From: Eledone cirrhosa
Taxonomy: Eukaryota
DNA length: 48,665 bases
Direction of reading: 5' to 3'
Assembly: GCA_964016885.1 (NCBI GenBank)
Contig: CAXHJY010000857.1
Location: 1 to 48,665, forward strand
Positions 497 through 43,532 of this stretch are shown here, in pieces. Position 1 is the first letter of the stretch; every line of letters begins with the position of its first letter. The notes beneath the pieces are model-generated. The model did no database searches, was not told the DNA's origin, and worked only from the letters and a program-made list of their open reading frames with translations. The translations under genes and the position numbers were made by a program.

Positions 497-667
497 GACA
501 GGACACCGATGGCTGAGCTCCAGCCGTTTCGACAGCGAGATCCGCCGAAACGGCCGGAGCTCAGCCGTCGGTGTCCTGTCTCTTTTCTATTACCCACTCT
601 ACTACCCTAAGTATTGAGTACTCTGGTGCGTTATGGCCCACCTGGTATCTTACAACACCCTCTGTGT
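497..667 (+). mobile_element. Family C fold-back mini-element carrying only the 3' half of a hammerhead
   Basis: Inverted repeat 497-580 around GAAAcggc..gagctc..gccgTC, followed by the family tail TTACCCACTCTACTACCCTAAGTATTGAGTAC; (TA)n on both sides; 8 copies in the window. Confidence 0.7.
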
Positions 668-861
668 GATATATATATATATATATATTATTATATATAT
701 ATATATATATATATATATATTTAAAGGTTAAACAAGGTTCAATGAATAAATCAAAGAATGAGTTTTACAATAGATTGGAAGCACTCAACAGTTATGGTTT
801 TCCGGAGTTATTAATATTAATTAAAAATATTAACAAAAATAGAACTTCTTGTGATCAAATA

Positions 862-928
862 TATTTTATTATACATATTTCAGAGGTACTGAGCTAACTT
901 CAACAGTACGTCCTCATCAGATAAAATA
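862..928 (-). ncRNA. Type I hammerhead ribozyme
   Basis: Minus strand: tattttat-CTGATGA-gga c gtactg..cagtac c tct-GAAA-tatgta-TA-ataaaata; perfect 8-bp stem I and canonical core. Confidence 0.88.
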
Positions 929-1109
929 AGATGATGCGTGACATACCCTGACATAGTAGATGGTTAAAATCCAGTCATGGTAGTCATATATATATATATA
1001 TATATATATATATATATATATATATATATATATATATATTAATATTTATAATTGATATATATTTATCCTTATCGAGCCCTGTTTGGATTTTAGTCTTCAC
1101 ATTATTATG

Positions 1110-1265
1110 CTTTGACGTATAGAGTTACGGCCCTTGCCATTTCTGAGTTCAAATCCCGCCGAGGTTAACTTTGCCTTTCATCCTTATGGGGTTGATAAAA
1201 TAAAGTACCAGTAATACACTGGGTTATTTCTGGCCTTGTGCCAAAAGTAGAAACAATTATTATTA
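1110..1265 (+). mobile_element. SINE family 1, 5'-truncated copy
   Basis: B box GAGTTCAAATCC, body GCCTTTCATCCTTA..GATAAAATAAAGTACC, (ATT)n tail; matches 46753-46940. Confidence 0.8.
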
Positions 1266-1551
1266 CTATATATATATATATATATATATATATATATATA
1301 TATATATAGCTTATATAAATATATATTTATATTAAACTTCCACGCTACGTGTTGATTGCTCCTTTCTCTGTATTGAAGCCACAGCTGTGTGGTGTGGTGT
1401 GGTAGTGCGCATGCGCACATGCGTATGTGAGTTTGTATCTGAGTATGTGCGTATTTTTGTATGTGTGTGAGTTGCTGATACAAATCACGCTTGCACCCTG
1501 TTTGCGCCATGCCATTAACCCTTTAGCATTTACGCCGACCATAGTCTAACG

Positions 1552-1635
1552 GGACAGGTCTAACGGGAGGAAGAAGGGGTCTAGTCTGTGAATTCGGTGA
1601 ACATAAGTTCTCCTTCTTCCTCCCGTTAGACCTGT
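1552..1635. repeat. Hairpin with 24-bp arms
   Basis: ACAGGTCTAACGGGAGGAAGAAGG ... CCTTCTTCCTCCCGTTAGACCTGT. Confidence 0.8.
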
Positions 1636-2291
1636 ACGGAATTCCTTCCTTGCTCACATTCCAACCAGGTTTGATGGTCTTTATTCTCTCTCGTTCACGA
1701 TTTCACCGAACTATATTCATGGAAATTTGGGACTTGACTCCTTCTTCCTCACTTTTCGTTGCTTCACCATCTTTGTTTTGTTCACACACTCGTGTCCCCT
1801 TTATTTACGTGTGCCAACGACTTTTTTTAGCCGTTGCTCGCACCAACCGGAGGTATATGTCTTTAAAGCGATGAAATACTAATGATGGTTGGAAGATCGC
1901 TGATGAAGGACTAACTTTATTCATATATATATATATATATATATATATATAATTATGTAATAACACAACAAAATACAATTATTCCATAACCCAAGGTTTC
2001 ACGAAGACAGGAGATCCCAACAGAGGCGTCCGAAGTCGTTCACGAGAAGGAAAATTTAATAGCTCTGTACTTATACATAGTGCACTCTTCTTTCCTTTAC
2101 TTTTCTCTACGGAAATCCTATATATATATATATATATATAGAACGACAGAGAGAGAGAGGGGGGGGGGGGGGTGACAGTGTCAACTACATATGTAGAGAA
2201 TGCGACCTTCAGAGAGAAGTTTGTGTAAAATAGGGTCCTGTACAACAGAGGACTACAGACAGCAACAGCAGTTAAGAAATTTGGTTCACAT

Positions 2292-2620
2292 TTAACCCTT
2301 TAGCGTTTACATTACTCTATATTTGCTATTGTATTTTCACAGTAAAGTCTTTATCTCACATAATATCTCACATAACATTTACATTACTCTATATATACTA
2401 TTATATTTTCACAGTAAAGGCTTTACCTCACATAATATCTCACATAACATTCACATTACTCTATATATACTATTATATTTTCACAGTAAAAGCTTTACCA
2501 CACATAATACCTCACATAACATTTACATTACTCTATATATACTATTGTATTTTCATGGTAAGATCTTTACCTCACATAGTATCTCATGTAATATCGAATC
2601 TACAAGATTTTGATATTATT
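2292..2620. mobile_element. Partial piggyBac-like MITE with internal 72-bp tandem repeats
   Basis: Begins TTAA-CCCTTTAG; reverse complement of the right part of 23106-23530. Confidence 0.65.
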
Positions 2621-2730
2621 TCTTGTGAGAAAAATCACCTTACCTTAGGTAGGAGCAGCTGGTAAGTAGTAAAACAACAGTTAGTTCACCATACCGTGAA
2701 CAATTGTTTCACCTAATACGGATCTTCAGT

Positions 2731-2771
2731 CCGCGCTGAAGATCCGTATAATGTGAAACAATTGTTCATGG
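2731..2771 (+). ncRNA. Degenerate minimal hammerhead inside fold-back 2661-2802
   Basis: ccgcg-CTGAAGA-tccgtataatgt-GAAA-caattg-TT-catgg. The mirror arm (minus, ~2693-2729) reads CTGAAGA-tcc gtatta ggt-GAAA-caattg-TT-cacgg. Stem II is weak. Confidence 0.6.
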
Positions 2772-2899
2772 TATGTGAACTAACTGTTGTGTTACCACTT
2801 CCACCAAACTCGTCCCATGGACTGAGTGCTCTACCACTATATATATATATATATATATATATATATATATATATATATATATATATGTGTGTGTGTGTG

Positions 2900-40950: not shown

Positions 40951-41171
40951 CTCCCAAATGAAACAGTTCTAGTTCTGTAGAAGCCATTTATATATTAAAT
41001 ATTTAAACTTTGCTATGTATTGAGTACCTTACTTACTGTGGTTACCCCTGATTGAACCCGGGATAAACATAATATATATATATATATATATATATATATA
41101 TATATATATATATATATATATATATATATATATATATATATATATATATATATATATATATATATATATAT

Positions 41172-41421
41172 CGACAGTCGATCGACTTTCGTCAAATAGG
41201 ACCGAGGAAACAATGTTTCCATTTGTCTTTCCAATTGCTAATACTATCTATCGGTCGCAACTCCAGGTAGAAGGAGCAACGTGAAATAAAGTGTGTTGCT
41301 CAAGGACATAACGCATCGCATTGTGGAGGCGCGTGGCTGAGTGGTTAGAGAATTGGATTCACAATCGTGAGATCGTGAGTTCGATTCCCGAACCGGGCGA
41401 TGCGTTATGTCCTTGAGCAAG
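41172..41421. mobile_element. SINE family 2 with inverted 5' part
   Basis: Minus-strand 3' part 41172-41319 and plus-strand tRNA head 41326-41421; both contain CGATGCGTTATGTCCTTGAGCAA. Confidence 0.75.
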
Positions 41422-41592
41422 ATATATATATTTATATATATATATATATATATATATATATGCAAAAGTTCTATTTAAAGTTGTTGGGATACAACAAGTA
41501 AATATTTTTATAACTGATATAAAGCACTCGACAAATTTTTGGAGTAGATATACGATATTAATAAATGGAAACTATATTTATAAAACCATATT

Positions 41593-41657
41593 TATTTCAT
41601 TATACATATTTCAGGGATACCACATTAAATTATGGTATGCCTTCATCAGACAAAATA
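41593..41657 (-). ncRNA. Hammerhead ribozyme (family B), left arm of palindrome 41548-41900
   Basis: tattttgt-CTGATGA-agg c ataccat..gtggtat c cct-GAAA-tatgta-TA-atgaaata. Confidence 0.85.
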
Positions 41658-41790
41658 CAATATATAACAGTTTTACAAATAGGTTTGACGTACCCTTTAA
41701 AATACAACCATTACATCCAGACAGCCTCCAAAAGTAATGGTTGTATTTTAAAGGGTACGTCAAACCTATTTGTAAAACTGTTATATATTG

Positions 41791-41855
41791 TATTTTGTCT
41801 GATGAAGGCATACCATAATTTAATGTGGTATCCCTGAAATATGTATAATGAAATA
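41791..41855 (+). ncRNA. Hammerhead ribozyme (family B), right arm
   Basis: Exact mirror of 41593-41657. Confidence 0.85.
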
Positions 41856-42308
41856 AATATGGTTTTATAAATATAGTTTCCATTTATTAATATCGTATAT
41901 ATATATATATATATATATATATATATATATATATATATATATATATATATATATACATGTGTGTGTGCTCAAGCATTCATATATCAGTTTATTTATCCAT
42001 TTCATACTACATAGCTATGTTGTTTCAGTAAAGTTAGTTGATTATTCAATAAACCTTTTTTCATACAACCCATTATTCCACTGAAGAGTCTTAGCGAACA
42101 ATCGACACACGGAGCTGGCTGGTCTCGTGCCATTTCATGTCAGCAACGGATCTCATCACGTGAACCAATGTGACCCGGATTTAAGTACTGTCCATGGCTC
42201 ATCGTTACCGGTTCCCATGGTCTTCATGCCTTCATGTCCCTCAAACTAGTATAGAAAAATATGAGAATATAGCACGTATATATATATATATATATATATA
42301 TATATATG

Positions 42309-42544
42309 TAGGAACGAGTAGGACCCCGACGGCTGAGCTCAAGCCGTTTCGACGGCTAATTCTGGACTAAATGAAAATTTTTATCCTGGATAAAAATGTT
42401 CATTTAGTCCAGAATTAGCCGTCGAAACGGCTTGAGCTCAGCCGTCGGGGTCCTACTCGTTCCTATTACCCACTCTACTACCCTAAGTATTGAGTACTTT
42501 GCTGCGTTATGGTCCACCTGGTTCCTTACCACATTTCCTTCGTT
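42309..42544 (+). mobile_element. Family C fold-back mini-element
   Basis: Inverted repeat 42309-42465 plus family tail. Confidence 0.75.
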
Positions 42545-43053
42545 ATATATAGAGAGAGAGATTTTGAGTATATGTTGGTTGTATACCAACACCTCAGTAT
42601 GCAGGCTGGAGCACTCGACGAAGTGCGCAGGTTGGTTATACTTAACAATAGCAGGTTGGTTATACTTAACAATAGCAAACACAAACACTACAGGGAGCCT
42701 CACCCCAGATATAATTCTATAGACTTCTGACTGAGGAATGCTCTCAGAACTGACCAATGGGAAGTTTGACACCTTTTTTGTTATTTTGTTCCTTTAACAC
42801 ATTGTCCCTTCTACCACTTTATCAATTTTTTAAGCTAACTCCAACAATAACAACACTTAGAATGAGGAATGTTCTAACAACTGACCAATGAGAGGAGAAG
42901 AGGCCCTTTGACACTGAAATTCGTTTATTTGAATTCATATGATTCCAGTTCCTCAGTGAAATAACAACCCAACCAGTAACTGGGCATATCAGAGTATTGA
43001 CAATATTATACACCTAAACAACATATGTACTTGTCTATACCACACTAATTCGG

Positions 43054-43108
43054 ACTGCCTGAAGAGGTCACAGCCAAAGATGGCTGTCACTGAAATATAT
43101 ATAGCAGT
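43054..43108 (+). ncRNA. Type I hammerhead ribozyme (family H)
   Basis: actgc-CTGAAGA-ggt c acagcca aaga tggctgt c act-GAAA-tatata-TA-gcagt. Confidence 0.87.
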
Positions 43109-43299
43109 AATAAACGAAGCTAAATTTTAAACATTTGACTTTTTATCTAACTTTATTTTATATATATATATATATATATATATATATATCTAGGGAGTGT
43201 AACTTGGAGTTACTGTAGGTTCACCCGGGTGAGCACTCGATGTTTAGGTTCACTTCAGTGTCGAGGTGTAGAGCTATACAGAGTGTAATATATTGAAAA

Positions 43300-43532
43300 G
43301 ATAACAAGGACGATTGGTTACTCCTTCATTACATTTATTGGTAGGTGACGCGTGTTTCGCCACTGATCAGCTCAAGGTTCTATCTGTATCGATCTTACTC
43401 GACTCTATAATCCGCAGCTCGACGCACTCCTTAAAATGCTAGTAGAAAATCGAACCTTGAGCTGATCAGTGGCGAAACGCGCGTCACCTACCAATAAATG
43501 TAATGAAGGAGTAACCAATCGTCCTTGTTATC
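43300..43532. mobile_element. Fold-back element containing hammerhead 3' halves (GAAAcgcgcgTC)
   Basis: 81-bp arms 43300-43380 and 43452-43532; no CUGANGA. Confidence 0.7.

What the first reader, a model, noticed from the sequence alone, without database searches (positions are those of the whole stretch)
497..43532. Stereotyped fold-back at stem II that removes the catalytic half of the ribozyme
Seen: seven family C copies (497, 2900, 16051, 30979, 34400, 40768, 42309), a single arm at 15271 and the unrelated element 43300-43532 retain only GAAA-stem III-UC-stem I(3'). They are mirrored about a point just 5' of GAAA, none has CUGANGA, and the apex loops differ between copies. Inference: cDNA synthesis repeatedly ends inside a long stem II, whose hairpin self-primes and copies back. 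The ribozyme structure would then dictate the inversion point and yield catalytically dead palindromic insertions.
Basis: partly seen in the sequence, partly recalled or inferred. Interest (0 to 1): 0.75.

Follow-up and report, generated by a model that had tools for sequence, protein, structure and literature searches.

The report
Penelope stubs end at RNA start
These DNA palindromes are short head-to-head stubs of a Penelope-like jumping gene, about 17,000 in this genome, and their centres likely mark the capped start of the element's RNA, which would lie inside its hammerhead ribozyme loop, rather than a self-priming ribozyme stem, a testable clue to how this class makes mirror-image insertions.

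Summary
The palindromes are real and lack the ribozyme's 5' half, but the stem II mechanism is not supported. They are stubs of a Hydra-clade Penelope-like element (RT plus GIY-YIG). Parents exist (3,552 core matches) with a YUGANAA core. The predicted CTGANGA-GACGGCTA parent occurs once, as does its control. The stem II self-primed product occurs once, against 17,025 short palindromes. Of 100 consecutive arms, 84 stop within 22 nt of GAAA, at Inr-like A's about 30 nt below a TATA-like word. A non-parental G flanks that A on both arms in 354 copies; A does so in 11 and parental T in 2,405. I read the G as a copied cap. One arm is tailed and one tail-less in 143 of 150 copies, and either can be the longer, which suggests two cDNAs joined at their ends. 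Other families keep their cores and stop at their own putative starts. There are no RNA data. The scan reached this reading before, on other DNA of this genome.

The parts
497..665 (.). Family C stub, divergent subfamily; arms head-to-head, spacer 531-546, tail on right arm from 588
2902..3100 (.). Family C stub; spacer 2942-2978 (arms keep 14 and 23 nt upstream of GAAA); tail 3019-3100
15267..15327 (+). Single tail-less arm joined to an AT repeat, beginning 17 nt upstream of GAAA (15284)
16051..16251 (.). Family C stub, divergent subfamily; left arm stops about 18 nt upstream of GAAA (read by eye), right arm keeps 3-5 nt; tail 16170-16251
30896..31077 (.). Family C stub, tail on the left (minus) arm; the tail-less arm keeps 16 nt, the tailed arm 1-3 nt
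34318..34533 (.). Family C stub, tail on the left arm; both arms reach the -18 A, with T runs and about 10 nt of filler between
40768..40950 (.). Family C stub, divergent subfamily; left arm stops about 18 nt upstream of GAAA (read by eye); tail from 40879 runs into an arm of family D
42309..42545 (.). Family C stub that passes the usual stop (39 and 36 nt kept, 2-nt GG overlap); tail 42464-42545
42406..42406 (+). The A 18 nt upstream of GAAA (TT-AGTCC, Inr-like): inferred main RNA start; a second inferred start is the A at 42402 (TC-ATTT)
   Evidence: inference
42424..42451 (+). 3' half of a type I hammerhead: GAAA, stem III with self-complementary TGAGCTCA loop, UC cleavage site, stem I 3' strand
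43190..43539 (.). Stub of an unrelated family (H) with one-sided tail; the tailed minus arm keeps 91 nt upstream of GAAA (43359-43449), the plus arm 24 nt (43450-43473)
15373..15470 (.). Family D stub (comparison): core CTGATGA kept in both arms; in 32 of 32 sampled palindrome arms the stop is at most 6 nt 5' of the core, at or inside an A lying 29-30 nt below TATAAATA or CGTAAATA in 6 parents

Best explanation
These palindromes are short head-to-head insertions of the front end of a Hydra-clade Penelope-like retrotransposon, and they likely end where the element's capped RNA begins, a start site predicted to lie inside loop II of its hammerhead ribozyme.

SHOWN
- The parent unit is pLTR (complete hammerhead motif), tail, 5' UTR, RT + GIY-YIG ORF, long 3' UTR, pLTR.
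- Arms stop at a cliff 18-22 nt upstream of GAAA.
- A non-parental G often stands at -19.
- One arm ends at a near site and the other at a site 80 nt further; both sites read TAT and abut AT repeats.
- The two arms come from the same subfamily.

INFERRED
- RNA polymerase II starts at the -18 A (and at the -22 A), so the RNA's 5' end holds only the substrate half of the ribozyme.
- The element's enzyme nicks both strands of an AT repeat and primes two cDNAs from the two internal start sites.
- When it uses the 5' copy of those sites on uncleaved RNA, both cDNAs run off the cap after about 60 and 140 nt, sometimes adding C opposite the cap or A's.
- The two 3' ends are trimmed and joined by microhomology, short snap-back or filler synthesis.

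The missing catalytic half would thus be a by-product of promoter position, not of ribozyme folding.
For: CLIFF
- Spacers of 0-30, 31-60 and 61-90 nt: 7,118, 9,274 and 633 copies.
- Of the first 100 exact arms on C1, 41 stop short of -17, 43 at -17 to -22, 0 in the loop beyond -26, 1 near -50, and 15 reach the core and run on 65 to at least 1,500 nt.

EXTRA G
- Base -19 is G in 0 of 77 read-through arms and 30 of 143 truncated arms; in the GTAC subfamily, 5 of 6 (the 15 loci fetched with the G pattern were left out).
- G on both arms 354, A on both arms 11.
- The same junction types stand in contigs of public runs.
- A 5' untemplated G is attributed to cap copying in L1 (PMC9341517, passages).

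PROMOTER-LIKE WORDS
- TATT(C/T)A-type word at -29 to -32 in 68 of 77 parents.
- Family D: TATAAATA or CGTAAATA at -29/-30 in 6 parents, and none of 32 arms passes that A.

TWO cDNAs
- Tail plus no tail in 143 of 150, two tails in 0.
- The tail-less arm holds upstream bases that the tailed arm lacks in 30 of 122.
- Central loops of 0-2 nt, too tight for a hairpin, in 46 of 140.
- A purified Penelope-like protein extends both target strands, starts at two internal sites that bound the tail, and does not need ribozyme cleavage (PMC11167929).

PARENT.
Against: - No RNA evidence for the start site or the cap was obtained.
- T, not G, is the commonest base at -19 (both arms: 2,405 against 354). T can be templated from the -22 start or be untemplated, and C on both arms was not counted.
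- G at -23 was seen in only 1 of 28 local arms ending in ATTT.
- The TATA-like word is weak in most family C subfamilies: TATTTAAAT in 18 of 77.
- 172 of 280 arms stop short of -18 and need trimming.
- The tailed arm is the longer more often (51 against 30, p = 0.026), as a single-cDNA snap-back would favour.
- None of 30 ORF-bearing copies begins at the -18 A; most carry a whole upstream pLTR (read by eye). This needs strand transfer or read-through RNA.
- Family H has no TATA at -30, and 3 of 27 arms pass its TCATT.
- The -18 A also lies in a weak inner hairpin, so a structural pause is not excluded.
Confidence: 0.66

Rival explanations
1. One cDNA, primed at the tail site, would run off the RNA 5' end, snap back on its last few bases and copy itself; later nicking and central deletions would give the tail and the varied apices.
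For: Common junctions fit 3-8-nt hairpins closed by the terminal base (GGACT-C-AGAATT, GGACT-G-AATT). The arms share subfamily in 95 of 153, chance 0.117. The tailed arm is longer more often. Self-priming was proposed for such junctions (PMC3846280, passages).
Against: These hairpin-like junctions occur with either arm as the full one. The tail-less arm is longer in 30 of 122. Loops of 0-2 nt in 46 of 140. G stands on both arms with 0-2 nt between them in most listed matches.
Confidence: 0.15
2. The RNA 5' end at -18 would be made by processing (a nuclease or small-RNA-guided cut in loop II, or a pause at the inner hairpin), not by transcription initiation, and the extra base would be plain terminal-transferase activity.
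For: T and A runs of 4 or more, which the parent lacks, precede the -18 A in 18 of 108 arms. A weak inner hairpin covers the site. No RNA data.
Against: The non-parental base is G far more than A (354 against 11). The stop falls on pyrimidine-A about 30 nt below a TATA-like word in two unrelated families. The inner hairpin is poorly kept: 81.7% paired, no covariation above shuffles.
Confidence: 0.11
3. One reading: cDNA would end inside a long stem II, whose hairpin self-primes and copies back, so that ribozyme structure fixes the inversion point.
For: Apices cluster 3' of the core, within the stem II/loop II region, and the stubs lack the core.
Against: Predicted parent 1 against control 1. 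Predicted product 1 in the genome. No product folded on the inner hairpin among 140 parsed junctions (read by eye). Family H reads through a long stem II. Family D stops 5' of the core.
Confidence: 0.04
4. The short palindrome would be a non-autonomous unit that copies itself whole, with apex differences arising later.
For: Very high copy number; a few spacers recur 3-4 times.
Against: 125 different spacers among 140 copies. Many subfamilies, each with matching arms. Long inverted copies share the same tail asymmetry.
Confidence: 0.04

Closest known systems
Hydra clade of C-terminal EN+ Penelope-like elements (Craig et al. 2021, PMC8557442; passages, section 11, supplement passages seen)
   Same: RT then GIY-YIG; RW(R/K), DKT, CxCx5C linker, CxxC and CxH motifs, no CCHH; (TA)n targets; hammerhead in the pLTR; inverted 5'-truncated copy with one-sided tail.
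   Different: Unit about 3.7 kb (estimated) against generally under 3 kb; tail about 80 nt against 30-40; core UUGANAA or CUGANAA; most insertions are stubs under 250 nt with a sharp common end, which the passages read do not describe.
PAc Poseidon element in vitro (Frangieh et al. 2024, PMC11167929; parts 1-2 of 4 read)
   Same: Two internal RT start sites bound the tail; both target strands are extended; AT-rich targets; uncleaved RNA is the template.
   Different: The parts read do not explain inverted insertions or run-off at the RNA 5' end; in PAc the ORF starts in stem II, here 213 nt after GAAA.
Adineta vaga Penelope elements (Arkhipova et al. 2013, PMC3846280; passages)
   Same: Inverted pLTRs, palindromic junctions, tail, TATA and Inr-like words in the pLTR.
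   Different: That paper favours self-priming on an antisense template. The G on the sense strand at -19 here points to a capped sense RNA and to two cDNAs.
PLE hammerheads of Schistosoma Cercyon (Cervera and de la Pena 2014, PMC4209133; parts 1-2 of 4 read)
   Same: Type I, U3-A8 variant, longer stem II, short stem I, palindromic loop III, pairs on opposite strands 100-700 bp apart.
   Different: Here stem III is a full 5-6 bp, loop II is about 40 nt and holds the inferred start site, and 29 of 73 parent cores have a C3-A8 mismatch.
Retroviral minus-strand strong-stop DNA (recalled, no call)
   Same: Works like it: a short cDNA from an internal primer site that runs off the capped 5' end of a terminally redundant RNA.
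   Different: Primed by nicked chromosomal DNA, at two sites, and fixed as a head-to-head insertion; no tRNA primer, no integrase.

Membership tests
Hydra-clade PLE | Single ORF, RT followed by C-terminal GIY-YIG endonuclease | tested here: met
   710-aa frame in L112 with YRDDG and VIY..YIG; ATG found in tandem copies. Pfam and PDB gave no match, so this rests on motifs.
Hydra-clade PLE | RWK motif and DKG changed to DKT | tested here: met
   RWR at 27 (K to R) and DKT at 109 (definition).
Hydra-clade PLE | CxCx5C linker; CxxC and CxH in EN; CCHH absent | tested here: met
   CNCPDRSIC at 564, CNLC at 662, CKH at 690, no hit to my CCHH-like pattern.
Hydra-clade PLE | Insertion into (TA)n | tested here: met
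   AT repeat follows 127 of 143 tails and 125 of 157 tail-less ends.
Hydra-clade PLE | Placement inside the Hydra clade on an RT tree | not tested
   Only compared by eye with the alignment passages of the supplement.
EN+ PLE insertion | pLTR in partial tandem, inverted truncated copy, one-sided tail | tested here: met
   Tandem pLTR upstream of the ORF; inverted pairs up to about 5 kb; tail on one arm in 143 of 150.
Type I hammerhead (parent pLTR) | Three stems around YUGANRA and GAAA..UH | tested here: met
   Stems I, II, III 99, 92 and 92% paired in 24 copies; MFE or centroid shows the topology in 3 of 5 folds. No covariation above shuffles; no Rfam match.
Type I hammerhead (parent pLTR) | Watson-Crick pair between positions 3 and 8 | tested here: inconclusive
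   U3-A8 in 42, C3-A8 mismatch in 29, U3-G8 in 2 of 73 cores.
Type I hammerhead (parent pLTR) | Self-cleavage | not testable with these tools
   Needs an assay.
Type I hammerhead (the stubs) | 5' core strand present | tested here: not met
   No core half in the window.
Non-LTR retrozyme | Tandem units, each with a complete hammerhead | tested here: not met
   Head-to-head half motifs; definition from bioRxiv 10.64898/2026.07.22.740005, part 1 of 5.
Pol II start site (TATA + Inr, capped) | Capped RNA 5' ends at the site | not testable with these tools
   No RNA holder listed; only genomic footprints.

The most novel reading that the evidence does not exclude
The element starts transcription inside its own ribozyme. 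The 5' end of the RNA is then a capped half-hammerhead that only the 3' pLTR of the same or another transcript can complete and cut in trans. The stubs are failed 'strong-stop' pairs of a retrovirus-like strand-transfer step that normally rebuilds the tandem pLTR. Penelope-like replication would thus join two-ended target priming with R-region strand transfer.
Probability: 0.22. Interest if true: 0.78.

Novelty: new variant of a known kind. Interest (0 to 1): 0.52.

Why it matters
How Penelope-like elements build their tandem and inverted insertions is stated to be undefined (PMC8557442, passages), and whether the template is sense or antisense RNA was left open (PMC3846280, passages). About 17,000 stubs of one family give a base-resolution footprint that points to a capped sense RNA, copied uncleaved from two start sites on both DNA ends. 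The prediction is exact: starts 18 and 22 nt upstream of GAAA. It can be tested by CAGE or with an existing in vitro system. The elements and their inverted layout are of a known kind, and the stubs are likely dead.

Tried and rejected
- Rfam found no hammerhead in the window (458 matches; the 150 listed are miRNA models below their gathering scores, mostly on AT repeats) or in a parent.
- Pfam and PDB sequence searches with the ORF gave nothing useful.
- The repeat finder was swamped by microsatellites.
- No RNA holder listed; this says nothing on expression.
- The contigs laid are of unrecorded kind, from one study, may be the assembly's own sample, and none spans the whole copy. They show only that such junctions exist outside this assembly.
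- The structure string was out of register; its numbers are void and one search replaces them. The corrected count shows no covariation beyond shuffles, since the copies are too alike.
- I first took the linker for Neptune type (note); the motifs fit Hydra.
- A splice acceptor at TTTAG was rejected because the arms keep the AG.
- Family E arms (33026 type) showed no sharp stop in 27 sampled arms, so the rule is not shown for every family.
- The RT frame in L062 lies in another element nested in an AT repeat and was not used.
- Spacers over 90 nt and the C-on-both-arms class were not counted genome-wide.
- The look-up of earlier findings by sequence gave nothing.
- Six paper searches listed no title or abstract start that ties PLE inversion points to a capped start site. 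Most were seen as listings only, and subscription papers and unseen supplements may hold it.
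Full report
1. OBSERVATION. The window is AT-microsatellite-rich animal DNA; it is a whole 48,665-base contig of a 3.0-Gb genome. The 27-mer has 13 window matches against 0 in shuffles and 24,224 exact matches in the genome. No upstream core half is in the window. The 43300 element is described wrongly: its tailed arm keeps 91 nt upstream of GAAA.

2. THE PARENT. The predicted parent CTGANGA-GACGGCTA occurs once, as does its reversed control. The real upstream half reads ACCCC-YTGANRA-G-YT-CGGCTA and occurs 3,552 times. 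It forms a type I hammerhead motif: stem I 5 bp, stem II about 7-9 bp with a bulge, about 40 nt of loop with a weak inner hairpin, stem III 5-6 bp with a self-complementary loop. Covariation does not exceed shuffles and Rfam does not match. Cores are U3-A8 in 42, C3-A8 in 29 and U3-G8 in 2 of 73; the U3-A8 variant is published for Schistosoma PLEs (PMC4209133, parts 1-2 of 4).

Long inverted copies hold an RT + GIY-YIG frame (710 aa in L112). Copies with the ORF start show pLTR, tail, 5' UTR and ATG 213 nt after GAAA. The motifs RWR, DKT, CxCx5C, CxxC and CxH, and the lack of CCHH, match the Hydra clade (PMC8557442 section 11 and supplement passages). The Hydra lead came from an earlier scan note and was tested here by motif, not by tree. 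Both arm ends read TAT in the parent and abut AT repeats in most copies.

3. WHERE THE ARMS STOP. Genome-wide, spacers between the two GAAA boxes number 7,118 (0-30 nt), 9,274 (31-60) and 633 (61-90). I took the first 100 exact arms on contig C1 as a sample not chosen by structure. Of these, 41 stop short of -17, 43 at -17 to -22, none in the loop beyond -26, one near -50, and 15 reach the core and run on for 65 to at least 1,500 nt.

I also parsed 140 palindromes: 7 from the window, the rest from pattern-chosen loci and their flanks, with the 61-90 class over-represented and divergent subfamilies scoring short. Of their 280 arms, 100 reach -18 and stop, 172 are shorter and 8 go beyond. There are 125 different spacers.

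4. A cDNA that self-primed on the true stem II would hold the whole loop once and rejoin at TAGCCG-TC-GAAA. That junction occurs once in the genome. Family H (43300) folds into a long stem II, yet 23 of its 27 truncated arms pass through it and at least 7 nt beyond; most end at or before a TCATT 30 nt further upstream, and 3 pass it. Family D keeps its core: none of 32 palindrome arms extends more than 6 nt 5' of CTGA(T/A)GA. Seven other palindromes in the window keep CTGANGA on both arms. The stop is family-specific and not tied to stem II.

5. WHAT THE STOP IS (inferred). The -18 base is an A after a pyrimidine (TT-AGTC or TC-AGT), Inr-like by recalled consensus. A TATT(C/T)A-type word lies 29-32 nt upstream in 68 of 77 parents, TATTTAAAT in 18. 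In family D the limiting A lies 29-30 nt below TATAAATA or CGTAAATA in 6 parents. The base at -19 is G in 0 of 77 read-through arms but in 30 of 143 truncated arms (the 15 loci fetched with the G pattern were excluded, and a few long arms fell in the truncated class). Counting only bases that the opposite arm cannot explain: T 48, G 20, C 6, A 4. Genome-wide, G on both arms is 354, A 11 and T 2,405. An untemplated 5' G is attributed to cap copying in L1 insertions (PMC9341517, passages). A promoter inside the pLTR is shown for Drosophila Penelope (PMC2377424, passages), and TATA/Inr-like words are noted in rotifer pLTRs (PMC3846280, passages).

Against this reading: T dominates at -19. It may be templated from a second start at the -22 A, but G at -23 appears in only 1 of 28 local arms and in a handful of the 50 listed. 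Runs of four or more T are non-parental (18 of 108 arms). None of 30 ORF-bearing copies starts at -18. No RNA data were available.

6. ONE cDNA OR TWO (inferred). One arm is tailed and one is not in 143 of 150 palindromes; none has two tails. The arms are identical over a variable 11-nt block in 95 of 153, chance 0.117 (this sample includes the 15 G-pattern loci). Among 122 oriented main-subfamily copies (18 of 140 left out), the tail-less arm holds upstream bases that the tailed arm lacks in 30, the reverse holds in 51, and 41 are equal or ambiguous. In those 30 neither arm can be a plain copy of the other, unless the centre was deleted later. Central loops of 0-2 nt occur in 46 of 140. A purified Penelope-like protein extends both target strands from two internal sites that bound the tail and uses uncleaved RNA (PMC11167929, parts 1-2 of 4). 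The simplest account is two cDNAs from the same RNA or sister RNAs, both run off the 5' end and joined.

7. COMPARISON AND NOVELTY. By motifs the parent is a Hydra-clade PLE. Inverted truncated copies with a one-sided tail are known features (PMC8557442, passages), and self-priming was proposed for them. What differs is the evidence that the stub ends mark a capped sense-RNA start, here inside the ribozyme's loop II. Six searches listed no paper that says so, mostly judged from listings. Earlier unreviewed notes of this scan reached the same reading on other pieces of this genome; I had written mine down before, and they are not independent support.

8. VERDICT. Observation partly confirmed; stem II self-priming rejected; best explanation 0.66; interest 0.52.

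Noticed in passing
L046, L047, L114-L117, L168 and others (parent cores): A large, young-looking subfamily has a C3-A8 mismatch in the core (29 of 73 cores), predicted to impair cleavage, yet it transposed widely; U3-G8 also occurs (L038, L039).
   Followed up: partly
window 43359-43449 (minus); L274, L281: Family H has a hammerhead-like fold with CCGTCGA where CUGANGA should be, kept across copies, and a very long stem II.
   Followed up: partly
window 2674-2790, 15373-15434, 16703-16839, 33026-33335, 39533-39565, 41554-41894, 45741-45996: Seven more head-to-head stubs of other families that keep CTGANGA in both arms.
   Followed up: partly
window 1554-1635, 33530-33617, 36059-36170, 39054-39141, 39965-40275: Further palindromic stubs without a CTGANGA pair; their parents were not traced.
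   Followed up: no
L157, L162, L165, L163 spacers: Junction fillers made of repeated short copies of the arm ends, like repeated re-priming during end joining; others are long A/T runs.
   Followed up: no
L007, L088, L110: One arm lacks stem III by deletion between the two AGCCGTC direct repeats on either side of GAAA.
   Followed up: no
L062:651-6257: A long inverted family C insertion holds another RT-bearing element inside an AT repeat of its 3' UTR.
   Followed up: partly
window 15932-16051 and 40950-41070: Family C stubs directly abut family D arms, so these elements may insert into or join each other's ends.
   Followed up: no
window 6720-7151, 20340-20499, 28081-28490: Inverted pairs of a different, very common short repeat (140 local blast hits), SINE-like by recall.
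   Followed up: no
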